A DNA stretch of 12,308 bases from Rotaria sp. (lineage: Eukaryota), in NCBI GenBank assembly GCA_905250055.1, contig CAJNOF010000061.1, positions 326,484-338,791 on the forward strand, read 5' to 3'. The notes beneath the pieces were generated by a model. That model was not told the DNA's origin. It did no database searches and saw nothing but the letters and a program-made list of their open reading frames with translations. Below, in pieces: positions 1 through 11,278 of the stretch. Each line of letters begins with the position of its first letter. Position 1 is the first letter of the stretch. The position numbers and the translations under genes are program-made.

Positions 1-1650
1 TATGCGGATTCTTACTTTAATCAAAGGAACTCTTTTTCGCACAATTAAATCTACAGCGAATACTTTTTTGAAGTAATTCAGCAGATCAAAAGATAAATGG
101 AAGCTCCAAACGGACTAAATGTCTTTCACGCGTACTATGAAACAATAAAAAATACAAATTCATGAGAATATAAATAATTATGGGAACCAGTCCCAAAAAA
201 AAGATTAATCTACTTTGAGCATTTACAGCTGTTTTCGTTGGAAAATATGATCATAAACATTTCTTACTATCTTTTACGAAGAAGAAAATGACTTATATAA
301 CCGTTTCAGAGACTATTTAATGTGAATAACGCTTGGAAACGCTGACTAGACGTAAAAACAGCAAGAAAAGTGATGATCACGTTTGTTCTTGCCGATTGTC
401 ACCGTTTCCTAACAGAACGGGTGATTATGGCAGTTTAAACGGCATTTTCAGCGGTTCACTTCTTCCTGGGAATACCTTGATAAAGACAAATCGAGGGAAC
501 CCAACTTTGATGAGCATGTTAAAAGGATAATAGATCACAGTAAATTTTCACGAAATTCGACTATTGACTCAGTTCCTTCTTCCTTGACCGAATCAGTAGG
601 ATTCTAGCGAAAGTACTCAGAAAGTGAGGTAGAATTGAGTAAAACTTGAAAATATACCAAGAATATCCTTTTCTGAATGCATCCGTTCAGACTTCATCTC
701 GTGAAATACTATTGTCGGATCCTTCATAACATTCTATTTCTAGAATAATGACGTTATTTTCCAACTGTATAAAATTTCTCGTTTGTACTAAGGGTGCCAT
801 AGTACCCTCAGCCACATAAACAGTCACTTATACCACACTTCTTTCACAAATATACCAGAAAACCAATATTTGTTTAATTTTAGGTGAAAATTATCAGTTA
901 TAGACTTTTTCTTATTTTCTATATTTTACGGTTTTTGGATCTGTCTGATTGTGTTTGTGCATTTTTTAAGTTTGTCTGTCATGTGAGATTGGATTTTGTT
1001 TGTTGTTATCTAAAGCCGAGCTTGTTAATGGTTTGAATGGCTCAGTTACCGATATTTTTTTCATTATGGTCTTACTTTTACCGTTTTTTTTAGTCAATAT
1101 TACTTTTGTGATAGTGTTGGCACTGCGCAAAAATTTCTGTCACTCAGCTTGCTGTGTTTGGCTTGTGCAATGATACGTTATCAAATTGAAATCAACAGTA
1201 TGAGAAAAATATATCGTCTTCTATATTGAAGGAGAAAGATACTCAGGTGACTTCATAAATTCGAGAAGAGTAAAAAGAAAAAGGGAATTTTCCATATAAA
1301 TGCTTTAGCACACAAACAGAGCAGACCAAACGTATGCAGAATAACGAATCAATAATCCACTTCAGGAAGAACGCGGATGTGAGTGTGGGAATAGATTTTA
1401 ACAGAATAGTGATATCCACACGTACGTCACATCTCATATTTGTGTTCTGTAATTATTATTATTAACGCGAAGGAATACTTAAAAAGACCACGTGTTGTGC
1501 AATAACAACATCGGCGGTCGTAAGAACGACAAATACAGATTCTTTTCTCTCTTTTTTTTATAGAGGCAATCTTGCACAATGTTTTGTAAAAACGTATTTC
1601 ATAGTTTCCTATGTAATACCTCTTTCATATTCTTGCTTTTTCCACATTTT

Positions 1651-1656
1651 TATAAG
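1651..1656 (+). promoter_or_regulatory. Candidate TATA box (TATAAG) about 50 bp upstream of the MVP start codon
   Basis: TATAAG lies in tttttataagtagg, 49 bp 5' of the ATG at 1705. This is positional inference only. Confidence 0.3.
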
Positions 1657-1704
1657 TAGGCATTGTTTTTCACATAGTCATTTACATTGTTATTAACCAA
1701 CGAT

Positions 1705-1901
1705 ATGCATTCATCAACTACAACTGCAACGACATCAAATAAAGGAGGTTCAAGTCCATTATATCGTATACCACCTTATTATTATATACATGTTTTGGAT
1801 CAAAATACAAATGTAACACGACTTGAAGTTGGTCCAAAAACATTTATTAAACAAGACAATGAAACAGTGACAGTTGGACCAGAAAAAATGATAACAGTAC
1901 C
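1705..1901 (+). CDS. MVP: Major vault protein, exon 1 (M..ITVP, phase-2 end)
   Basis: ATG at 1705; translation [52 protein letters not shown] matches the MVP N-terminus ([32 protein letters not shown]). Donor is cc|GTACGT at 1902. Confidence 0.88.
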
Positions 1902-1963
1902 GTACGTATATTATTCTAGAAGAAAAACATAAAAAATAAATAATTATTCTAAATTATGTTTAG

Positions 1964-2132
1964 ACCACGTCATTATTGTGTTGTTGAATCGCCTGTCGTA
2001 CGTAATGAAGCAGGAGTAGTTCAATTTGATGGAAATGGTCAGGCTAAACTTGTTCATGCTGACTTGGATGTTCGTCTTGCACAGCCTGATCAAGCACCAT
2101 TTCCACTTTATCCCGGAGAAATTCTTCGTCAA
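1964..2132 (+). CDS. MVP: Major vault protein, exon 2
   Basis: Acceptor is tgtttAG|a at 1962-1963. Completing the Pro codon gives [11 protein letters not shown]...[22 protein letters not shown], matching MVP PPRHYC...[21 protein letters not shown]. Donor is caa|GTATAA at 2133. Confidence 0.88.
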
Positions 2133-2202
2133 GTATAAAAATCAATATATTTTTTGTTCTGTACTGTTATGTTTTCAATATTTTATTGTTTTCTTTTTTC
2201 AG

Positions 2203-2511
2203 CCAGTTACTCCTCTAAAAGTTGTACCAGCTAATTCAGCCTTACGTTTGAAAGCTATACTTGATTTTGATGATGAGACAACAAAAGAAAAACGTCATGC
2301 TGGTGATGAATGGTTATTTGAAGGACCAGCTACATATATTCCACGAAAAGAAGTTAGTGTAGAAGAACAAATTCGTGCAACTGTTATTGGTCCGAATCAA
2401 GCTATTCGATTATGTGCAAAAAAAGAAATCATTGATCGAACAGGTCAACAACGTGTTACTGGTGAAGAATGGTTAATTAAAAAAAATGGTGCTTATTTAC
2501 CACTTGCATAT
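2203..2511 (+). CDS. MVP: Major vault protein, exon 3
   Basis: Acceptor is ttttttcAG at 2201-2202. [50 protein letters not shown] matches MVP repeat domains. Donor is tat|GTAAAT at 2512. Confidence 0.88.
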
Positions 2512-2573
2512 GTAAATGAAATTCTTTTTTCATCAAAGTTTTATTTTATTAATTAAATATTTCATTGTTCTAG

Positions 2574-2840
2574 GAAACCGTTCTTGCTGTTGAAAATGCT
2601 CATGTTTTAACAGATAAAAAAGCTCTTCATCTTCGTGCTCTAAAAACTTTTACAGATGATTTTGGTAAACAACGTATGAATGGTGAAGAATGGCTAATAA
2701 CTCTTAAGGATACTGAAACACATATTCTTAGTGTTTATGAACAATTAGTTGCTGTTGTTGATGTAATAACACTTAATTCACGTCAATATTGTGTTATTCT
2801 TGATCCAGTTGCTGATGGAAAACCACAATTGGGAAAAAAG
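2574..2840 (+). CDS. MVP: Major vault protein, exon 4
   Basis: Acceptor is gttctAG at 2572-2573. [46 protein letters not shown] matches MVP ([42 protein letters not shown]). Donor is aag|GTTTGT at 2841. Confidence 0.87.
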
Positions 2841-2862
2841 GTTTGTCATGATAGTTTTATTT

Positions 2863-3431
2863 TGTGAAACACAATCTAACAGGAATGTTGAAGTATATGG
2901 GTAGAAATTTGAACTTCTACTCCGCCCGCACAGACATGACGAATATCATAGCAATAATTCATTGCAGATAGAGATGTAAGCCGATGCATTTCGACTCAAC
3001 AATTTTCTTAATTTTGAGAGATTCTGAAATGAAAAAAGAAAAAAAAGGATAGTAGAGAACTTATTGGCAAGTAACCAGACAGTAACATTTTCGAAAACTG
3101 ATTTGAGACGTCAAAAATTTTCAAAAAAATCAAACATCTATTTTTGTGGCACGGTGACGTGACTCAATTGTTAGAGCATTGGCTCAGTCGATCAATTTGC
3201 ACCTGTAATCACAGATTTGACAGTTACGTTAGAAACGGCTCATCACAGAACATGATAGACATTATTCATATATGACCAAAGACTGTTTATCAATAACCTC
3301 TGGTTACAATATATGAACCATTTCCTTAGTACGCTTCTGGAAAAGGATGATGAAGAAATGCATGTACCCAAAATAGATAGAATAAAATAACTTTCATGTG
3401 ATTATTAATAGCAATGGCATCGTGTTTCACA
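2863..3431. mobile_element. 569-bp MITE-like non-autonomous element inside MVP intron 4, with terminal inverted repeats TGTGAAACAC(A/G)AT
   Basis: Left end tgtgaaacacaatc at 2863 and right end atcgtgtttcaca at 3419-3431 are inverted copies. No coding capacity is seen. Intron 4 is 652 bp versus 56-72 bp for the other six MVP introns. A related truncated copy lies at 5880-6060. Confidence 0.65.
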
Positions 3432-3492
3432 TTTTAATCCTGTAGGACTTAAGCTAACAATGTTTTTTTATTTGAATTTATTTCTTGTTTAG

Positions 3493-3677
3493 AAACTTAT
3501 TGTTGGTGAAAAATCATTTTTTCTTCAACCAGGTGAAAAACTCGAAAATGGTATTCAAGATGTTTTCATCTTGGGTGAAGATGAAGGTGTTATTCTTAGA
3601 TGTATTGAAGCATTTCATGATGAACAAGCTGGTACTAATAGAAATCCTGGTGATCGATGGATGATTCGTGGTCCAAC
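3493..3677 (+). CDS. MVP: Major vault protein, exon 5
   Basis: Acceptor is tgtttAG at 3491-3492. [41 protein letters not shown] matches [38 protein letters not shown]. Donor is ac|GTAGGA at 3678. Confidence 0.85.
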
Positions 3678-3744
3678 GTAGGAGCTTGATTTGTGTTTTG
3701 TTTTTGTTTTTGAAAATTAAAAAATCTTAATCTTTTATTTTTAG

Positions 3745-4711
3745 TGAATATATTCCTCCAACACAAGTTGCAGTTGTGACACGTCGAAAAGCAATACCTT
3801 TAGATGAAAATGAAGGTATTTATGTTCGTGATATAAAAACAGGTCGTGTACGAGCTGTTATTGGTGAAACTTATATGTTAACACATGATGAAGAACTTTG
3901 GCAAAAGGAATTACCTAAACAAGTTGAAAATTTACTTACACGTGATCCATTAGCTGAACGAAATATGCTAACTCGTAATCAAGCATCGGATAGACCTCAA
4001 CAACACGCAGCTACTACTATACAAGCAGCAAGTACACTATCAAGTACAACTGCACGTGATAATTCAAAATTAGTTACTTATCGTGTACCACATAATGCTG
4101 CTGTACAAATTTATGATTATAAATCTAAAAAAGCACGTATTATTTTTGGTCCAGAACTTGTCATGCTTGGTCCAGATGAACAATTTACATTACTTTCATT
4201 AAGTGGTGGCAAACCAAAAAAACCTAATCAAATTCAAGCACTTTGTTTACTTCTTGGTCCTGATTTTTTTACTGATGTTATCGTTATTGAAACAGCTGAT
4301 CATGCCCGTCTATCACTTCAACTTTCATATAGTAAATTGATGAATTATAATTTATTTAATATTCTTTATTTTACTTATTTAGATTGGCATTTCGAAGTGA
4401 AGGATATGAAGGATGAAAAAGAAACAGAAAAACTTTTTTCAGTTCCTGATTTTGTTGGTGATGCAGCTAAAGCAATTGCATCACGTATTCGTGGTGCTGT
4501 TGCTGGAACTCAATTTGATGATTTTCATAAGAATTCAGCACAAATTATTCGTGCGTCAGTATTTGGTCTTGATGCAAATCAACATATAAGAGATCAATTT
4601 GTTTTTCCACAAAATAATCTCGTTATTACATCAATTGATATTCAAAGTGTTGAACCAGTTGATCAACGAACACGTGACGCACTTCAGAAAAGTGTTCAAT
4701 TAGCTATTGAA
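3745..4711 (+). CDS. MVP: Major vault protein, exon 6 (shoulder/cap-helix region)
   Basis: Acceptor is ttttAG at 3743-3744. [152 protein letters not shown] is near-identical in motif order to vertebrate MVP. Donor is gaa|GTATGA at 4712. Confidence 0.9.
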
Positions 4712-4767
4712 GTATGAATAAATTAATTGATTTATTAGATCATAAATATATATAATAAATTCTTTAG

Positions 4768-5008
4768 ATAACAACAAATTCACAAGAGGCTGCAGCTAAA
4801 CATGAAGCTTCACGTCGTGAACAAGAAGCTAAAGGTTTATTAGAACGTCAGCGTATTAAAGATGAAGCCGAAGCTGAAGAAGTTCGAAAACAACTTCTTC
4901 TATTGCAAGCTGAATCAGCTATTGTTGAAATAACAGGTCAAGCTAAAGCTGAAGCACAAAGTCGTGCTGAATCTGCTCGAATTGAAGGAGAAGCCGGTGT
5001 TGAACAAG
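4768..5008 (+). CDS. MVP: Major vault protein, exon 7
   Basis: Acceptor is tctttAG at 4766-4767. [38 protein letters not shown] matches [52 protein letters not shown]. Donor is caag|GTACAA at 5009. Confidence 0.87.
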
Positions 5009-5080
5009 GTACAAAAAAAAACATTATAATACATATAGTAAATATTTAAATAATGAATTTTTTTTTCTTCTTTTCTATAG

Positions 5081-5481
5081 CTACTCTTAAAGCCAAAGCC
5101 GCACAAATTGAATCTGAATCTGAATTATTACGTCTAAAACTAGCACGTGAAGCTGAAATAAAATTTTTACGAGAAAAAAACGAATTAGAAATTAGTAAAA
5201 AAGCTGAAATCTCAAGAATTGAAACAGAAAAATTTAAGTCACAAGTTGAATCCATTGGTGCATCAACAATACAAGCCATTGCCACTTCTAGTTCAGATAC
5301 ACAAGTTAAACTTTTACAAGCACTTGGTCTTCAATCAATGTTAGTTACTGATGGTCATACGCCAATTAATCTTATGGGATTTGGGCAAGCTCTTTTAGGT
5401 GATTTTGCTGGTAGTCCAATTAAAAAAAGACGATTATCAACTGGTGTTTCGAATAAATTTAATGTCGAAGAAACTGAGTAG
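5081..5481 (+). CDS. MVP: Major vault protein, exon 8 (C-terminal coiled coil; stop TAG 5479-5481)
   Basis: Acceptor is ttttctatAG at 5079-5080. ATLKAKAAQIESESELLR..KFKSQVESIGASTIQAIA..TQVKLLQALGLQSMLVTDGHTPINL matches MVP [61 protein letters not shown]. Confidence 0.87.
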
Positions 5482-5578
5482 ATCAGACATGTGAAAATGT
5501 CATCGTCTTTAATTCATGTGTATTGAAGTTATTTTCTATACACTCGGTTTGATTTTTTTTTAATATTTATGTAAGAAT

Positions 5579-5584
5579 AATAAA
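5579..5584 (+). terminator. Candidate polyadenylation signal AATAAA for MVP
   Basis: aataataaattgaac lies about 100 bp downstream of the MVP stop codon in an AT-rich 3' flank. Confidence 0.35.
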
Positions 5585-5879
5585 TTGAACGAAAAAATTT
5601 ATATTAATTGAATTTTTCTGTTCGAAGCTAGACTTTGATTACTATAGAACAAACATTCAATTCGATAGAATTATTTTGTAGCAGATAAACATAAGTCAAG
5701 GGTGTGAACTACAGACTTCATTAGATTTCATAGGTACATATGAGTAAGATAATTTCGGTCTCGCAAGAACCGAAGTAAAAAACGACTGGCTCCGTTCACA
5801 TGTATTCGTAGGATTTCAAGCCCGAAGTCTTCGTTATTTTCCCTGCGTCTTGAGTATTATACTCATCTTTTGTTTCTTT

Positions 5880-6060
5880 TTTTATTGTGAAACACGATCT
5901 ATAAAGAAGTGTTGAAGTATATAGGTTAGAAATATTTAGATGGATGTAAAAGAAGAGAAGACCCTCCTTCGCCCTTCCCCCCACCACAGACCATGAGACA
6001 CTATATATCAATAATGGCTCGTTGCAATGTACTGACTACTTTCTTATTTTACTTCTGGAG
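5880..6060. repeat. Truncated second copy of the intron-4 element's 5' region (TGTGAAACACGATCTA...GTTGAAGTATATAGGTTAGAAAT...)
   Basis: About 100-180 bp align with 2863-3040: ttattgtgaaacacgatctataaagaagtgttgaagtatataggttagaaat versus ttttgtgaaacacaatctaacaggaatgttgaagtatatgggtagaaat. Further patches also match (cacagac..atga..atatca..ttgca). No matching right terminus was found nearby. Confidence 0.6.
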
Positions 6061-6819
6061 GATTAAAGTAAAAAAACGGATGGAGAAGTTCGTCTCAAGA
6101 TACATGAAAATACAACGATCATCGTGTAAATAGCTATGATAACTACATTGTATTTCAGATTTCAATGCCGTAGAGATTACTTTAGTAGCTTTTCTAGTGG
6201 TTTCGATGTTGGTCTATTATTGAATCGACGACTAGCTCCTTTTTCGGGCTTATCTCTTTTGAATTATGTTCTGATGCATCTCACTGATACGTTCATTCTC
6301 TTAAAACTATAGAATATTCCACTATAATCTTTAATTTCGGTTGGAACAACTTTTTTTCTCGTAGTTGTCAATATGTTTATAGAAGAATTTTTTCAGGAGT
6401 TGGCTAATTCGAATTCGAATATAAATGAAGAGCCTGTTGCTTGCTATCGATTCGAGAATAAATGCTAAAGTAGAAATCGAAACGTTTATGTACAATAGAT
6501 ATAGATAGGAGTAAATTGAGCTTTTATTCTCTTGCATTTATAATTTATATATAGGGGTGAATTGCAAAATTATTGTACCGTTATATTCTTATATGTAAAA
6601 GTTCAATATCTCGAGTTCTTCTCAGTCAATCTCTATGATTTTTTCAGGTTAGATTTCTCTAAGAAGTCCTCACTACCACACAAAAAAATCACAAATTTCA
6701 TCTTGAACTAATCTAGAGATATTGGATGCGTAACGTATAATAGATCGATTTTTACTGTCGCCTATAAGGAAAAAGTCATATAACCGATTGGTTCCTTCTT
6801 AATTGAACTTCAGAATTTT

Positions 6820-6862
6820 GCGGGCGTGGGTGTGGATGGGTGTGGATGGGGTGTGGGTGTGA
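6820..6862 (+). repeat. Degenerate telomeric-type repeat tract, G-rich on + strand (GGGTGT/TGTGGG-like with GGATGG variants)
   Basis: gcgggcgtgggtgtggatgggtgtggatggggtgtgggtgtga. Confidence 0.75.
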
Positions 6863-6885
6863 GACTTCTCCGGATGTCGGTACTC

Positions 6886-6960
6886 ACCCGCACATCCACG
6901 CCTACACCCACCCACATCCACACCCACCCACACATCCCACACCCGGCCACACCCACACCC
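6886..6960 (-). repeat. Degenerate telomeric-type repeat tract, C-rich on + strand (ACACCC-like); head-to-head with 6820-6862
   Basis: acccgcacatccacgcctacacccacccacatccacacccacccacacatcccacacccggccacacccacaccc. The reverse complement is a (GGGTGT)n-like tract that includes gtggatgtgggtgggtgt. Confidence 0.78.
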
Positions 6961-7285
6961 AAAATCAAACTCATAATGTTTTCGTTGTTTTCTTTCGTTC
7001 TCACCCAAAAGAAAAAAAGTAAAGTATCCAACGCATTGGCACTCAAATAATTCAATAGATGAAAAACAAACGAAAATTGGACAGAATAACAATGCAATTG
7101 CTAATGTTATTGGCAACCATATAATTAACTGCAACTAGGTAAAGTTTGTCTTAAGTGTCAACGAAACAAAAAAAACACATCCACATTTAATGTCGTAGAA
7201 AAATTTAAAAAAAGAAAGCCAACATCGAATTTATTTAGAAAAAACGAACTTTATTAAAATAGCAATTCACTGCGCAGTATACTCT

Positions 7286-7351
7286 CACTAATCGACGATC
7301 TTGTCCTATTCTTTCCAGGTTCTTGTTTTTCTTTACTTTCAGACAAGATTC
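7286..7351 (+). repeat. Left terminal inverted repeat of the 7286-8713 element
   Basis: See the element call. It begins CACTA. Confidence 0.75.
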
Positions 7352-7665
7352 CTGTATTCAGGCAAGATTCTTTTCGACAGGAAAGTAAAAAGAATCTTGT
7401 CTGAATTTCAAGATGACAAGAATCTCGTCTGATTAATCAGAAATAAAAGAATCAGGCAAGAATTATAAGATATTCAAGATATATTTAACGTTCAGACAAG
7501 ATTCTTGTTAAAAGAAAAGATAAAGAATCTTGTCTGAAGTTCAAGATCAAAAGAATCTTGTCTGAAAATTATGACAAAACAGAAACTGGAAAGAAATATA
7601 AGATATTTTAAATTTCTTAGTATTCAGACAAGATTCTTATGATAGAAAAGAAAAAGATTCTTGCC
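7338..7665. repeat. Left subterminal array: at least 9 copies of CAGACAAGATTCTT and its complement, several paired as hairpin-forming inverted repeats, interleaved with TTCAAGAT spacer motifs
   Basis: Examples: ttcagacaagattcttgttaaaagaaaagataaagaatcttgtctgaa at 7490-7537 (15-bp stem); aagaatcttgtctgaa at 7390; aagaatcttgtctgaaaa at 7549; cagacaagattctta at 7624. Confidence 0.8.
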
Positions 7666-8439
7666 AGCTTTTCAAGATCAACAGCACGTGATGTCGTCTT
7701 TGTATGATCAAATATATAAAGGCAATGTCTGAATGTTATTTATTCATTATTTCAATTGGATGTATAGAAAAAGTTTCCATTCGATATCGAGAAAACAGTG
7801 GAATATATGATATCTTTTTTTCCATTGTTTTCAGAAAACTTACACTTATTAAACACATTTCGATATTTTACCAATCCACATCTTTCTATTTTATTTTTTT
7901 TAGATTTTCTTTCATTATCCACAAAAGTGTTTTTTTAATGGACGAAGAAAATATTGATTCCATCAAAAAATTATTGTTTGATAATGTTCTTGGTAGTATA
8001 GGTAATATCTATATGCACTTTATATCTTTTTGATTAAAATACTATCTTTTTTAGTCATCACCACATACAGATAAACAACGTCGATGGCGTGCTAAGAAAA
8101 AAGATCAACATCATCGTACTCAATTATCTCTACATCATTTACTAATTGAACAAATTGTAAATAACTTATTTTAATCGAGCTAGCTCAACACACAACGATG
8201 ATGAAGTTTGAAAAAATAAGTATTTTTTTTGATAATTAAAATTTTGTTTTTTTTTGTATTAAAAACTGACACTGCTTTAACAACATGTGAAATTAAAAGT
8301 ATTTTTTTGTTTTTTTTTACATTTGTTGTACATAGTGTGCAAAGCTTATAATAAAACGATATGAAAAAAGAGTAATAATAACCTACAAAAGGCTTTTTAA
8401 TGTGACCAGAATTAGGCACGAAACACAAGAAATAAGAAA

Positions 8440-8661
8440 CAGACAAGAATTTAAGAAAAAAAGAATCAGGCAAGTACATCAAGAAAAATAAGAATCAGAC
8501 AAGAATTCAAGAAAAGCAAGAATACAAGAATCTTGTCTGGAGAAGAACTTCTTGCCTCACCAGCCAAGATTCGGTCTACACGAATCTTGTCAGAAAGGCA
8601 AGATCAGTTTTTTCAGGCAAGAATCTTGTATAGAAAGAATAGAAAAAGAATCTTGTCTGAA
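8440..8661. repeat. Right subterminal array of the same motif family (AAGAATCTTGTCTG, CAGGCAAGAATCTTG, AGAATCAGACAAGAATT variants)
   Basis: aagaatcttgtctgg at 8526; caggcaagaatcttgta at 8614; aagaatcttgtctgaaaacc at 8648; cagacaagaatttaag at 8440. Confidence 0.75.
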
Positions 8662-8713
8662 AACCAAGAAAAACAAGAACCTGGAAAGAATAGGGCAAGA
8701 TCGTCGATTGGTG
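8648..8713 (-). repeat. Right terminal inverted repeat of the 7286-8713 element
   Basis: Reverse complement matches 7286-7351 with 4-5 mismatches. Confidence 0.75.
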
Positions 8714-8748
8714 CTATTATGGATTAAACAACAGAGTTTTCGTTTAAA

Positions 8749-10104
8749 ATGAATCAACAACGACGGCGACAAATGGCTGAAAATTACTTAGTGATTTGGG
8801 TCGACGGCAATATCAATATGGCAAACGAACATTGCCAAAACACACTCACACAATTGTGCGGTGTTGTTAATGAAGTCAATCAATGCACCACCGCCGAAAA
8901 ATGTATTGAGACGCTTCAAGAAAATAGTGAGAAGACATCATTTGTTATCTCCTCTGGTGCACTTGGCCAACATCTCGTACCAGAAATTCATGGCATGCCA
9001 AAATTAGATGGCATTTATATCTTCTGTGGCAACAAACAACGCCATCAAGAATGGGCCAAAAATTGGTCAAAAATTAAAGGCGTTCATACATCCATTAAAT
9101 ACATCTGTGAAAAACTGGCAGTGGCTATTAAACAATGTGATCAAGATCAGGTAACTGTTAGTATTATTGACATCAATGAAGGAGATGCTAGCGAAAATCT
9201 CAATCAGCTAGAACCATCCTTCATGCATACACAAATATTCAAAGAAATTCTCCTTGATATGGATCATGGCCGACAAGCCATCAAAGATTTGGTCAAGTTC
9301 TGTCAAGAAAAATATCAAGGCAATCGTAAAGAACTCAAATTTATTCAAGAATTTGAACGTACCTATCAATCAACATTGGTGATATGGTGGTATACACGCC
9401 AATGTTTTACAAACAAAATGCTTAATCGAACATTATGAACGCTCGATAATGACATTATTATCCGAATGGGTTTTTATTTATGTGATGTCCATCGGCAAAT
9501 TAAAGATTTACACAGCAAGCAAATCAATGAATACCATGGTAAGACATTTCTACTTTATCGGGGGCAAGGATTATTGACGGCAGACTTCGAAAAAATCACG
9601 AAAAACAAAGGTGGACTTATCTCGTTTAATAATTTGTTATCCACCAGTAAAAATCACGATGTATCCCTCGGGTTCGCCAAGGACGCCTTAGAAGCAACAG
9701 ATAAGGTCGGTGTTCTTTTTCGAATGACCATCGACCCCACCGAGTCTTCGACTCCATTCGCTTCCATTCGAGAGCTGAGTGATTTCGCACAAGAAGATGA
9801 AATTCTCGTCTCTATGCATACAGTTTTTCGAATTGGTGACGTTCGAGAAATTGACAAGAAAAGTCCACTTTATGAAGCGCACCTTAAACTTACAGTAGAT
9901 GATGATCAACAACTCCGTCGATTAACCGATCGTATACGAGAAGAAACATTAGGTAGTGCTGGACGGTATCGAATGGGTCAATTGCTGCTCAAAATAGGTC
10001 TATTCGCCAAGGCCGAAGAATTATATACCGCATTACTAAAACAGGCATCGGATGACAGTCATAAAGCATTTATCTATCGTCAGCTTGTGGCCTGTGGGGG
10101 GTGA
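8749..10104 (+). pseudogene. Intronless gene for an N-terminal ~230-aa unknown domain fused to an R-S-E-clade ADP-ribosyltransferase domain and the first helix of a TPR region; interrupted by one in-frame TGA (9436-9438) and 3'-truncated at a telomeric-repeat junction
   Basis: ORFs 8749-9438 and 9466-10104 are in the same frame, separated only by the TGA at 9436-9438 (...KMLNRTL*TLDNDIIIRMGF...). ART motifs: FLLYRGQG (Arg codon 9559-9561), LLSTSKN (S-T-S 9640-9648), AQEDEILVSMH (E-x-E 9793-9801), with spacing typical of cholera-toxin-like/C3-like ARTs. The C-terminal ...AEELYTALLKQ..KAFIYRQL is TPR-like and stops at LVACGG immediately before the telomeric repeats. Confidence 0.8.
9436..9438 (+). 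other. In-frame TGA stop inside the ART gene; reading frame and conserved sequence continue on both sides (likely CGA(Arg) to TGA)
   Basis: tta TGA acg ctc gat aat gac att att atc cga atg ggt. The downstream frame continues into the ART catalytic domain without a frame shift. Confidence 0.8.
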
Positions 10105-10210
10105 GTGAAGAAAATATTGACAGTCACATCCTAATTTTATACAAAAACATTGATAAGATTCACAGTTTTGTTATCAATCGAATATTAAAAAAAAATTTAT
10201 TAGACAGTAT

Positions 10211-10318
10211 AGGGTGTGGGTGTGGGTGTGGATGTGGGTGGGTGTGGGTGTGGGTGTGGGTGTGGGTGTGGGCGTGGGTCTGGGTCTGGGTCTGGGGTGT
10301 AGGTGCGGGCGTGAGTGT
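10211..10318 (+). repeat. Telomeric-type (GGGTGT)n tract, G-rich on + strand, about 108 bp with variant units (GGATGT, GGGTCT, GTAGGTGCGGGCGTGAGTG tail)
   Basis: agggtgtgggtgtgggtgtggatgtgggtgggtgtgggtgtgggtgtgggtgtgggtgtgggcgtgggtctgggtctgggtctggggtgtaggtgcgggcgtgagtgtga. The hexamer TGTGGG is the repeat reported for bdelloid rotifer telomeres. Confidence 0.85.
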
Positions 10319-10335
10319 GAAACAAGATGATAGTA

Positions 10336-10360
10336 CACCCACACCCACGCCCACACTCAC
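10336..10360 (-). repeat. Short C-rich telomeric-type tract (ACCCAC...) opposing the 10211-10318 G-tract
   Basis: acccacacccacgcccacactcac. Further short G-rich (10398-10414 gggtgtgagtgtggggt) and C-rich (10441-10450 acccacactc) remnants follow. Confidence 0.7.
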
Positions 10361-10999
10361 AATTTATCATTGGATCTTGTTGATCAAGTTGAATAATGGG
10401 TGTGAGTGTGGGGTATAGTCTTGTGCTCACTGACTCACATACCCACACTCTTAAGGACTTTAGGAGTGCATAAAAAAAAACTATCTGAGTTTTCCGGAAG
10501 CTCAAATAATGCATCACTTCCAGATCTTATATGTCCCTGTAGAAACTATCACGAATGATAATCGAAATGTCTAAGAGAAACATAGATAAACGCATAATTT
10601 TCTCGGCACAGATGAGCAGTTTTAAGCTTCGTGGAGAAGCTCTTTCGTCGTTAGTTATGCATCGATATTCTCATCCTCTAATGATTCCTATTTGGTTTGA
10701 TCTATAAAAACCATTCTCTTCGTTTTTATCCGATGTTCTTCAGGTAGTCACAAACTATCAGAAGGATCTGTAAATATACGAAAAGAAAACATGTGATCGT
10801 TATTGCTTAAAATTGTGGTCCTAGATTATGAGAGCGAAATGACCGGTTTTTTTGTGTGTTTACACGCGTTTTCAGCCCTGATAATTGCTTGATATATATC
10901 ATGCACAATTTGTGCAGTTGTTGCCATTCACGTGTTGACATCTATGCATTAGTTTCAAAATGAACATGATCGAATCCATTAGTGATCTTGGTTTCTTTT

Positions 11000-11009
11000 A
11001 TTTATTTCG
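11000..11009 (-). terminator. Candidate polyadenylation signal (AATAAA on - strand) for the E2 gene
   Basis: The + strand ttttatttattt reads aaataaataaaa on the - strand, about 185 nt downstream of the E2 stop codon. Confidence 0.25.
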
Positions 11010-11189
11010 AAAGATAAAATAGTTTCATCTATGAAGAGAATTTTCAACTACAAAACAGAATTCTTGTTTATAGAAGACGAAAAAATAGAGAAGGTTTATA
11101 TTTGAAAGATAGATATCAGGAGGAAAAAAGCTTTTGTACGTAACAAAGCTATTTTCTGTCCAGAAAGAAAAAAAAATATCGGATTATTT

Positions 11190-11278
11190 TTATGATCGAG
11201 GTAATCCATTCTTCTGGATCATTGCTGTCGCCTTTCGTTCATATTCAGCTCGGTTTTGTATAAATTCTTTAGCGATGT
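11190..11278 (-). CDS. Ubiquitin-conjugating enzyme E2, exon 3 (C-terminal helices; stop TAA 11192-11190)
   Basis: Acceptor is ttgttatAG at 11280-11279 on the - strand. DIAKEFIQNRAEYERKATAMIQKNGLPRS* aligns with E2 C-termini ([27 protein letters not shown]; RAD6-type NKREYEKRVSAIVEQ). The total CDS is 531 nt, about 176 aa. Confidence 0.7.

What the first reader, a model, noticed from the sequence alone, without database searches (positions are those of the whole stretch)
7286..8713. TIR element with CACTA-like terminus and hairpin-rich subterminal arrays sits 35 bp upstream of the ART start
The element has ~66-bp near-perfect terminal inverted repeats starting 5'-CAC(T/C)AATCGACGATCTTG. Inside each end is a 200-330-bp array of a 14-bp motif (CAGACAAGATTCTT) in direct and inverted orientation, several forming 15-bp-stem hairpins. 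This organisation is the hallmark of transposase-binding subterminal repeats in CACTA/EnSpm-, hAT- and Mutator-type elements. Flanks (tct|...|cta) show at best a 2-bp CT duplication. The element has no transposase ORF, and its right TIR ends 35 bp before the ART ATG, so the ART gene's promoter, if any, must lie within the element. Array periodicity with TTCAAGAT spacers also resembles a transcription-factor binding array.
Basis: seen in the sequence. Interest (0 to 1): 0.65.

Follow-up and report, generated by a model that had tools for sequence, protein, structure and literature searches.

The report
Non-autonomous CACTA-type transposon in Rotaria
The 1,428-bp stretch is a mobile DNA element without its own transposase, from a transposon family shared by several Rotaria (bdelloid rotifer) species, that is present in one allele and cleanly absent from another just upstream of a broken ADP-ribosyltransferase (ART) gene; it is real but ordinary.

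Summary
Window 7286-8713 has 66-nt terminal inverted repeats (61 of 66 bases match), and each end carries a subterminal array of a 14-16-nt motif in both orientations.

It is a transposon. An allele from another Rotaria sp. 'Silwood-1' individual lacks exactly these 1,428 bp and has one CT where the filled allele has CT on both sides. The target-site duplication (TSD) is therefore 2 bp.

Full-length relatives (84-97% identity) lie at unrelated loci in R. socialis and R. sordida, in a second Silwood-1 locus and in one metagenome contig. A partial copy is in R. magnacalcarata. Their ends read CACTA...TAGTG, and their TSDs are AT, CA, TA and TTA.

CAC...GTG termini, a 2-3-bp TSD and subterminal arrays are the structural signature of the CACTA/Mirage/Chapaev (CMC) group. 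hAT, Mutator, Tc1/mariner and Harbinger fail the TSD test.

No transposase is encoded. The interior holds only a decayed small ORF (dN/dS about 1). No autonomous partner could be searched for, so the superfamily call rests on structure alone.

The neighbouring ART gene is a truncated pseudogene, so the promoter idea has little weight.

Verdict: new member of a known kind, modest interest.

The parts
7284..7285 (.). Left copy of the 2-bp target-site duplication (CT)
   Evidence: The empty allele L002 reads ...TATACT-CT-ATTATT... with a single CT. The filled alleles have CT on both sides.
7286..7351 (+). Left terminal inverted repeat, starting 5'-CACTAATCGACGATCTTG
   Evidence: 66 nt, 92.4% complementary to 8648-8713. 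The terminus is identical or nearly so in all related copies.
7340..7664 (.). Left subterminal array: 9 or more copies of TTCAGACAAGATTCTT in both orientations, partly at a 28-bp period, with hairpin-forming pairs
   Evidence: Folded as single-stranded DNA, z = -8.4. The number of units differs between copies.
7938..8001 (+). Relic small ORF, exon 1 (MDEENIDSIKKLLFDNVLGSI), followed by a GT donor at 8002
   Evidence: It matches predicted small proteins P0135-P0142 and aligns with the other copies.
8055..8156 (+). Relic small ORF, exon 2 (..SSPHTDKQRRWRAKKKDQHHRTQLSLHHLLIEQI). The frame is broken in this copy by a 2-nt deletion at the acceptor. The GTAAAT donor of intron 2 is at 8157, and most of exon 3 is deleted.
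   Evidence: Alignment with the intact copy L014 and with the 3-exon subfamily in L021. dN/dS is 0.84-1.07.
8350..8355 (+). AATAAA polyadenylation-type signal downstream of the relic ORF
   Evidence: Read from the sequence. It is conserved in all aligned copies. Its function is inferred.
8440..8659 (.). Right subterminal array: 7 or more motif copies in both orientations, including 3.4 units of a 28-bp tandem repeat at 8430-8523
   Evidence: Folded as single-stranded DNA, z = -7.0.
8648..8713 (-). Right terminal inverted repeat. Its reverse complement starts CACCAATCGACGATCTTG; related copies in other species have CACTA here.
   Evidence: The same CACCA variant is in the 97%-identical copy L014.
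8714..8715 (.). Right copy of the 2-bp target-site duplication (CT)
   Evidence: Empty-site comparison.
8749..10086 (+). Neighbouring ART gene fragment (not part of the element). It covers the N-terminal and ART domains only, has an in-frame TGA at 9436-9438 and has no TPR exons.
   Evidence: 84% identical to residues 1-445 of the 829-aa paralogue P0123. No hit to the C-terminal half anywhere in the window. Weak Pfam ART and TPR hits.

Best explanation
Window 7286-8713 is one copy of a non-autonomous cut-and-paste DNA transposon family, 1.4-1.7 kb long, found across the bdelloid rotifer genus Rotaria. By structure it belongs to the CACTA/EnSpm-Mirage-Chapaev (CMC) group.

Shown here:
- The element has exact boundaries and a 2-bp TSD.
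- It is present or absent between alleles of one species.
- Related copies are dispersed in several species.
- The termini and subterminal arrays are the best-conserved parts.
- It encodes no transposase.

Inferred mechanism:
- A DDE transposase encoded elsewhere in the genome recognises the CAC(TA) ends.
- It, or a partner protein, also binds the repeated, partly palindromic ACAAGAWTCTTGT-type sites in the 220-330-bp arrays inside each end.
- Binding brings the two ends together. The enzyme cuts the element out and reinserts it at a 2-bp (occasionally 3-bp) staggered cut, and repair of that cut produces the duplication.

The interior is the decayed remnant of a small three-exon gene carried by the family, not a working gene. 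The copy landed 35 bp upstream of the start codon of an ART-TPR gene that is now a truncated pseudogene, in a repeat-rich region marked by telomere-type arrays. Its effect there is probably neutral.
For: Empty site:
- Contig CAJNZB010000173.1 of individual RSIL806 (L002) matches window 218-7285 at 99.5% and then continues directly with window 8714-8835. One CT lies at the junction. The assembly identity comes from PMC7943196.

Copies elsewhere:
- R. socialis has copies at three or more different gene contexts, 98.2-99.3% identical to one another.
- R. sordida has a full copy at 93% identity.
- R. magnacalcarata has a partial copy.
- One metagenome contig has a copy at 97%.
- A second Silwood-1 locus carries a diverged subfamily with the same ends.

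Termini and TSDs:
- The termini are CACTAATCGACG...CGTCGA(C/T)TAGTG.
- The TSDs are CT (proven by the empty site), AT, CA, TA and TTA.

Conservation:
- The first 200 and last 230 bp are 95-98% conserved between species. Interior bins range from 68% to 97%, with the least conserved stretches at element positions 201-250 and 901-1050.

No transposase:
- No ORF exceeds 109 aa and none has a Pfam hit.
- All homologues of the internal ORF are 195 aa or shorter and come only from Rotaria, apart from a few unnamed ENA or JGI sequences.

Literature:
- Animal CACTA elements and CMC miniature inverted-repeat elements (MITEs) share invariant 5'-CAC...GTG-3' ends and a 2-bp TSD (PMC6004678).
- Chapaev has CAC...GTG ends and a 3-4-bp TSD (PMC4079192).
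- The wider CMC-plus-Transib ('CMCT') lineages have CA..TG ends and TSDs of 2-5 bp (PMC12730594).
Against: - No autonomous partner or CMC-type transposase was found, or could be searched for: no nucleotide search of Rotaria genomes was available. The superfamily assignment therefore rests on ends, TSD length and subterminal arrays only.
- Two R. socialis copies (L006, L008) show no clean TSD, and one (L009) fits 3 bp rather than 2.
- The 66-nt TIR is longer than the classic 13-nt En/Spm TIR (own knowledge).
- The empty allele differs from the filled one at about 6% of positions near the junction. The two alleles are therefore old, and precise loss cannot be formally excluded.
- The copy number per genome is unknown.
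Confidence: 0.75

Rival explanations
1. It is a non-autonomous transposon, but of a superfamily other than CMC that also makes very short duplications (for example ISL2EU within the PIF/Harbinger-ISL2EU group, PHIS), or of an undescribed one. The CACTA-like end would then be convergent.
For: No transposase partner was identified. One insertion has a TTA duplication, a Harbinger-type target. TA dinucleotide TSDs occur in PHIS lineages (PMC12730594).
Against: The TSDs CT, AT, CA and TA are not sequence-specific. The CAC...GTG ends are invariant and CACTA is found in most copies. Subterminal arrays in both orientations are the CACTA hallmark. 2-bp TSDs with CAC...GTG ends are documented for animal CACTA elements (PMC6004678).
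Confidence: 0.17
2. It is a hAT-type or Mutator-type non-autonomous element.
For: Subterminal repeats and long TIRs also occur in hAT and Mutator elements (own knowledge).
Against: The 8 bp on either side of the element differ (TATACTCT versus CTATTATG). The empty site shows that only 2 bp are duplicated. Four other insertions likewise have TSDs of 2-3 bp. hAT makes 8-bp and Mutator 9-11-bp duplications (own knowledge).
Confidence: 0.02
3. The family is semi-autonomous. The small internal gene (about 135 aa in the longer subfamily, with a basic region and an acidic tail) would be a working element-encoded DNA-binding factor, analogous to TnpA, that binds the subterminal motifs, while the cutting enzyme comes from elsewhere.
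For: The ORF family occurs in all subfamilies and in four or more Rotaria species. Members only 36-41% identical still share the KQRRWR core. A 33-nt stretch of exon 2 is nearly invariant. The motif is partly palindromic, as expected for a dimeric binder.
Against: dN/dS is 0.84-1.07 over exons 1-2. The frame is broken in the window copy and in all R. socialis copies, the start codon is lost in R. sordida, and one L021 copy has a premature stop. The AlphaFold model is low-confidence (pLDDT 55, pTM 0.19) and shows no compact fold. There is no Pfam match.
Confidence: 0.05
4. It is not mobile. It would be a locus-specific palindromic regulatory structure or a transcription-factor binding array for the ART gene.
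For: Periodic motif arrays lie just upstream of a start codon.
Against: The same 1.4-1.6-kb unit, with the same ends, sits next to unrelated genes (ADH, 7tm, Arf-like, pentapeptide and others) in several species. It is precisely absent from an allele. The ART gene is a pseudogene fragment.
Confidence: 0.01

Closest known systems
Animal CACTA/EnSpm elements and their non-autonomous derivatives (for example ENS1_Cis of Ciona savignyi, and the CMC-NA_1/2 MITEs; PMC6004678)
   Same: Invariant 5'-CAC...GTG-3' ends, a 2-bp target-site duplication, and no transposase in the short derivatives.
   Different: This element is 1.4-1.7 kb, which is not miniature. It has 66-nt TIRs and long subterminal arrays, and it carries a relic small ORF. 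No sequence similarity to those families was tested.
Maize En/Spm and its defective dSpm/I elements, the plant CACTA elements (own knowledge)
   Same: CACTA...TAGTG termini, and arrays of a short motif in direct and inverted orientation within about 200-300 bp of each end, which in En/Spm bind TnpA. Non-autonomous copies are moved in trans.
   Different: En/Spm has 13-bp TIRs and a 3-bp TSD. Here the TIR is 66 nt and the TSD is mostly 2 bp. The motif sequence is unrelated. No TnpA or TnpD homologue was found.
Mirage and Chapaev branches of the CMC group
   Same: CAC...GTG ends. TSD of 2 bp in Mirage (own knowledge) or 3-4 bp in Chapaev (PMC4079192).
   Different: Branch assignment needs the transposase sequence, which is missing. 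The TWA target of Chapaev3 fits only one of the five clear TSDs.

Membership tests
CMC (CACTA/EnSpm-Mirage-Chapaev) superfamily | Termini 5'-CAC(TA)...(TA)GTG-3' | tested here: met
   The window copy has CACTA at the left end and CACCA at the right end (reverse complement). R. socialis, R. sordida and the copy in L021 have CACTA at both ends.
CMC (CACTA/EnSpm-Mirage-Chapaev) superfamily | Short target-site duplication of 2-4 bp | tested here: met
   The empty-site allele shows a 2-bp CT. Other insertions show AT, CA, TA and TTA. Two R. socialis copies have no clean TSD.
CMC (CACTA/EnSpm-Mirage-Chapaev) superfamily | Subterminal arrays of a short motif in direct and inverted orientation (CACTA/En-Spm type) | tested here: met
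   There are 16 core motifs, all confined to 7340-7633 and 8440-8659, on both strands. They are conserved in all copies.
CMC (CACTA/EnSpm-Mirage-Chapaev) superfamily | An autonomous partner with the same ends that encodes a DDE transposase carrying the C(2)C and H(3-4)H signature | not testable with these tools
   No nucleotide search of Rotaria genomes was available. Protein searches seeded with the internal ORF found only proteins of 195 aa or fewer.
Transposable element (any class II TIR family) | Multiple dispersed copies with shared ends, plus presence/absence at a locus | tested here: met
   Copies lie at seven or more independent loci in four Rotaria species and one metagenome contig. 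The empty allele is L002.
hAT superfamily | 8-bp target-site duplication | tested here: not met
   The flanks are TATACTCT and CTATTATG. The empty site shows that only 2 bp are duplicated.
Mutator/MULE (and Foldback) | Target-site duplication of about 9-11 bp | tested here: not met
   The same empty-site evidence applies.
Tc1/mariner | TA target-site duplication | tested here: not met
   The TSDs are CT, AT, CA, TA and TTA, so they are not TA-specific.
PIF/Harbinger | 3-bp TWA target-site duplication | tested here: not met
   Only one insertion (L009, TTA) fits. Four have 2-bp TSDs of varied sequence.
MITE (miniature inverted-repeat element) | Length below about 800 bp with no coding remnant | tested here: not met
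   Copies are 1,417-1,584 bp and carry a relic three-exon ORF.

The most novel reading that the evidence does not exclude
The Rotaria-specific small protein carried by this family (about 135 aa in the longer subfamily: basic KQRRWR-K-K core, helical middle, acidic tail) would be, or recently was, a working element-encoded factor. It would bind the partly palindromic subterminal sites, making these short elements 'half-autonomous' partners of an unidentified transposase.
Probability: 0.05. Interest if true: 0.55.

Novelty: new member of a known kind. Interest (0 to 1): 0.3.

Why it matters
It adds a cleanly defined class II family to the bdelloid repertoire, with exact ends, a TSD and an empty site. 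It also gives direct evidence that a cut-and-paste element has moved recently in putatively ancient-asexual rotifers: the insertion is polymorphic within R. sp. 'Silwood-1', and copies at different R. socialis loci are 98-99% identical. The published insertion-polymorphism analysis for these genomes used LTR retrotransposons (PMC7943196). For the window itself, it means the DNA upstream of the ART fragment is transposon sequence and should not be read as host regulatory DNA.

Tried and rejected
- Exact look-up of six spurious ORFs inside the element, plus two from the neighbouring ART and telomere-repeat region, to find other copies: none is in the protein collection.
- Pfam scan of the internal ORFs and the spliced peptide: no hits.
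- Treating the internal peptide as the ends of a transposase. One single-sequence search and two profile searches over billions of proteins found only relatives of 195 aa or fewer. The one 595-aa 'cluster member' (P0144) is a bacterial ABC transporter, a clustering artefact.
- A 14-nt match between the element (7944-7957) and the ART intron-like region (10107-10120): a chance match in AT-rich DNA.
- Metagenome scan with a 20-nt TIR word: one true copy (L014) and three chance or bacterial hits (L013, L015, L016).
- Search for further empty sites among the fetched loci: none.
- Search for further elements or longer partners in the 210 kb of fetched loci: none.
- Rfam at gathering thresholds over the whole window: no family.
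- The sigma-70 promoter and terminator scan is not meaningful for a eukaryote, and its promoter count was no higher than in shuffles.
- AlphaFold model of the 136-aa ORF: pLDDT 55, pTM 0.19, too poor for a fold search.
- The second ART piece in L002 (9997-11235) is bounded by single-N scaffold joins. I treated it as the other haplotype placed by reference-guided scaffolding, not as a real duplication.

Full report
**Source.** The window is eukaryotic DNA of about 32% G+C with spliced genes. The 229-aa ART ORF at 8749-9438 is recorded exactly in NCBI assemblies of the bdelloid rotifer Rotaria sp. 'Silwood-1'. An example is GCA_905250075.1, contig CAJNOP010000149.1, fetched as L001. The window is 98.8-99.4% identical to L001 over its whole length, so it comes from a sister assembly of the same locus. 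The gene order is as follows.

- Major vault protein gene (1687-5481).
- A head-to-head telomere-type array (6822-6961).
- The element (7286-8713).
- An ART fragment (8749 to about 10086).
- A second head-to-head telomere-type array (10212-10361).
- A ubiquitin-conjugating-enzyme gene on the minus strand.

- The inverted repeat is 66 nt, 7286-7351 against 8648-8713, at 92.4%. Its ungapped score of 51 is far above the shuffle maximum of 18.
- The 14-mer CAGACAAGATTCTT has 13 hits with at most 2 mismatches, all inside 7340-8659, against 0.2 expected.
- The 9-mer core occurs 16 times inside the element and once in the remaining 10.9 kb. The copies fall into a left array (7340-7633, with a weaker copy reaching 7664) and a right array (8440-8659). 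They lie on both strands and are partly periodic at 27-28 bp.
- Inverted neighbours form stems of 16-29 nt. Both arms fold far better than shuffles as single-stranded DNA, with z = -8.4 and -7.0.
- The full site is partly palindromic (ACAAGA-W-TCTTGT), and a related GATCTTGTC lies in the TIR itself.
- No ORF exceeds 109 aa, there are no Pfam hits and no Rfam family.

**It is mobile: the empty site.** L002 comes from GCA_905331535.1, which is individual RSIL806 according to PMC7943196.

- L002 matches window 218-7285 at 99.5%. It then continues directly with window 8714-8835 at 94%, the two alignments overlapping by 2 nt.
- The junction reads ...GCATTATACT-CT-ATTATTGATTAAAC. The filled alleles read ...GCAGTATACT-CT-[CACTAATCG...1,428 bp...CGATTGGTG]-CT-ATTATGGATTAAAC.
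- The element is therefore exactly 7286-8713, with a 2-bp duplication of CT. A single clean CT without a footprint fits a never-occupied site better than an excision product.
- The two alleles differ at about 6% of positions close to the junction, so they are old.
- L002 also carries a separate ART piece (9997-11235) bounded by single-N joins. Those assemblies were scaffolded with RaGOO on a 10x reference. I therefore read this piece as the other, filled haplotype of the same individual.

**It is a family.** I spliced the small internal ORF by eye and searched with it. It hit eight predicted proteins of 50-88 aa in R. sp. Silwood-1, R. socialis, R. magnacalcarata, R. sordida and environmental data. 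Fetching their loci gave the copies below. Percent identities to the window copy are from the global alignment.

| Source | Locus and bounds | Identity to window copy | Flanking duplication |
|---|---|---|---|
| R. socialis | L006 5403-6819; L007 5298-6784; L008 5270-6853; L009-L012 (one locus) | 89.8-90.7% | see next paragraph |
| R. sordida | L019 5704-7247; L020 5705-7220 | 93.2-93.3% | CA / CA in L020 |
| R. magnacalcarata | L017, partial copy, right end at 1289 | not computed | left end missing |
| Metagenome contig Ga0081455_10178271 | L014 79-1534 | 96.9% | AT / AT |
| R. sp. Silwood-1, diverged subfamily | L021 7912-10978 | 80-92% by segment | TA / TA |

- The R. socialis copies lie next to different genes in at least three contexts and are 98.2-99.3% identical to one another. 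The R. sordida copy sits inside an Arf-like gene model.
- The ends are CACTAATCGACG...CGTCGA(C/T)TAGTG, the canonical CACTA...TAGTG. The window copy and L014 share a CACCA variant at the right end.
- Length differences among copies are mostly gains or losses of subterminal repeat units.
- Between species, the first 200 and last 230 bp are 95-98% conserved. Interior bins range from 68% to 97%, with the weakest stretches at element positions 201-250 and 901-1050. This is as expected if the ends are what the transposase needs.

**Target-site duplications.** The clear cases are CT (proven by the empty site), AT, CA and TA. The L009 locus has TTA on both sides, which is either a 3-bp duplication or a mutated 2-bp one. 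L006 has cAG / gAG and L008 has none. L007 shares its right flank with L009 but has a different left flank, which suggests exchange between near-identical copies or a chimeric assembly.

**Superfamily.** CAC...GTG ends with a 2-bp TSD are described for animal CACTA elements and CMC MITEs (PMC6004678). Chapaev has the same ends with a TSD of 3-4 bp (PMC4079192). The wider CMC-plus-Transib ('CMCT') lineages share CA..TG ends and TSDs of 2-5 bp (PMC12730594). Arrays of a short motif in both orientations inside each end are the classic En/Spm architecture (own knowledge).

- hAT (8-bp TSD) and Mutator/Foldback (9-11 bp) fail the TSD test.
- Tc1/mariner (TA) and PIF/Harbinger (TWA) also fail it.
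- The defining transposase could not be examined. No nucleotide search of Rotaria genomes was available, and nothing longer was found in the 210 kb of fetched loci.
- I therefore put 'mobile non-autonomous TIR transposon' at about 0.97 and the CMC assignment at about 0.75.

**The internal ORF.** In the diverged subfamily (L021) the interior is a three-exon gene for a 136-aa protein, P0184. It has an N-terminal helix, a basic KQRRWRDKKKDK core and a D/N-rich acidic tail, and it is followed by AATAAA.

- The window copy is a deletion derivative. Exon 1 is 7938-8001. Exon 2 is 8055-8156 and has a 2-nt deletion at the acceptor relative to L014. The apparent 'VNNLF*' ending is read-through into intron 2, and most of exon 3 is gone.
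- All R. socialis copies share a 1-nt deletion in exon 1. The R. sordida copy has ACG in place of ATG. One L021 copy has an in-frame TGA.
- Nei-Gojobori dN/dS over exons 1-2 is 1.07, 0.84 and 1.00 for the three pairs tested.
- An exhaustive profile search of 1.84 billion representatives, and a second indexed profile search, found only proteins of 195 aa or fewer. Every named hit is from Rotaria, and a few ENA or JGI sequences carry no name. No transposase-sized relative appeared.
- The AlphaFold model is poor: pLDDT 55, pTM 0.19, three helices and a disordered tail.
- I conclude that the ORF is a decaying passenger or remnant, not a functional gene. A TnpA-like role is not strictly excluded.

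**The ART gene and the promoter claim.** The 35-nt spacing is correct.

- The ART reading frame is 84% identical to residues 1-445 of an 829-aa paralogue. It has an in-frame TGA at codon 230 and ends at a GTGAGT donor-like site near 10103.
- It is followed by telomere-type repeats, and no TPR exon is present in the window.
- In the empty allele only 87 nt of the coding sequence remain before the repeats.
- The element inserted into the 5' proximal region of a gene that is now a dead fragment. Whether its right end drives any transcription is untested and of little consequence.

**Verdict.** It is a new, well-delimited member of a known kind (a CACTA-type non-autonomous transposon), with population-level insertion polymorphism in a bdelloid rotifer. 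It is ordinary in mechanism and modest in interest.

Noticed in passing
window 6822-6961 and 10212-10361; L002 7621-7850: Two head-to-head arrays of the bdelloid telomere repeat, (GGGTGT)n followed by (ACACCC)n, bracket the block made of the transposon and the ART fragment. The spacer AACAAGATGATAGT between the opposed arrays is shared, with 1-2 substitutions, by the filled and empty alleles. Yet the ART gene is cut at different points in the two alleles (near 10100 versus 8835). This looks like breakage healed by telomere addition, followed by fusion or deletion.
   Followed up: partly
window 8749-10104: The ART-TPR gene is a pseudogene fragment. It has an in-frame TGA at 9436-9438, its homology to the 829-aa paralogue P0123 stops at residue 445, a GTGAGT donor-like site lies at 10103, and no TPR exons remain in the window.
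   Followed up: yes
L002 7851-8095 (absent from the window at about 10361/10362): The empty allele carries about 245 bp that encode a B-box-type zinc-finger N-terminus (weak Pfam hits). This stretch is deleted in the window allele.
   Followed up: partly
L019 5001-6685 and L020 5001-5710 (R. sordida): A copy of the transposon sits inside an Arf-like GTPase gene model. One annotation (P0147, 227 aa) is a chimera of host exons and the element's relic exons.
   Followed up: partly
L007 versus L009-L012 (R. socialis), element ends at 5298/6784 and 5270/6784: The two loci share the same right flank but have different left flanks. Either ectopic exchange occurred between near-identical copies, or an assembly is chimeric through the repeat. 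L006 and L008 also lack clean target-site duplications.
   Followed up: partly
window 8075-8107 (exon 2 of the relic ORF) and the equivalent stretches in L009, L014, L017, L019 and L021: A 33-nt stretch, AAACAACG(T/A)CGATGGCGTG(C/A)TAAGAAAAAAGAT, is nearly invariant between diverged subfamilies, although the ORF as a whole evolves with dN/dS of about 1. It may be constrained at the DNA level.
   Followed up: no
L021 9426-9496: Inside the diverged copy there is an inverted piece of exon 3 and then a single N, followed by a second partial copy. This is most likely a scaffolding artefact that joined two contigs ending in the repeat.
   Followed up: partly
protein cluster of P0135: A 595-aa bacterial ABC-transporter protein (P0144) is listed in the same 90% cluster as the 56-aa rotifer peptide. 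This is a clustering artefact in the protein collection.
   Followed up: yes
L021 2790-3200 (minus strand) and 18068-18769: A cysteine-rich 136-aa ORF and another ART-type gene lie near the second Silwood-1 copy, so the family again sits next to an ART paralogue.
   Followed up: no
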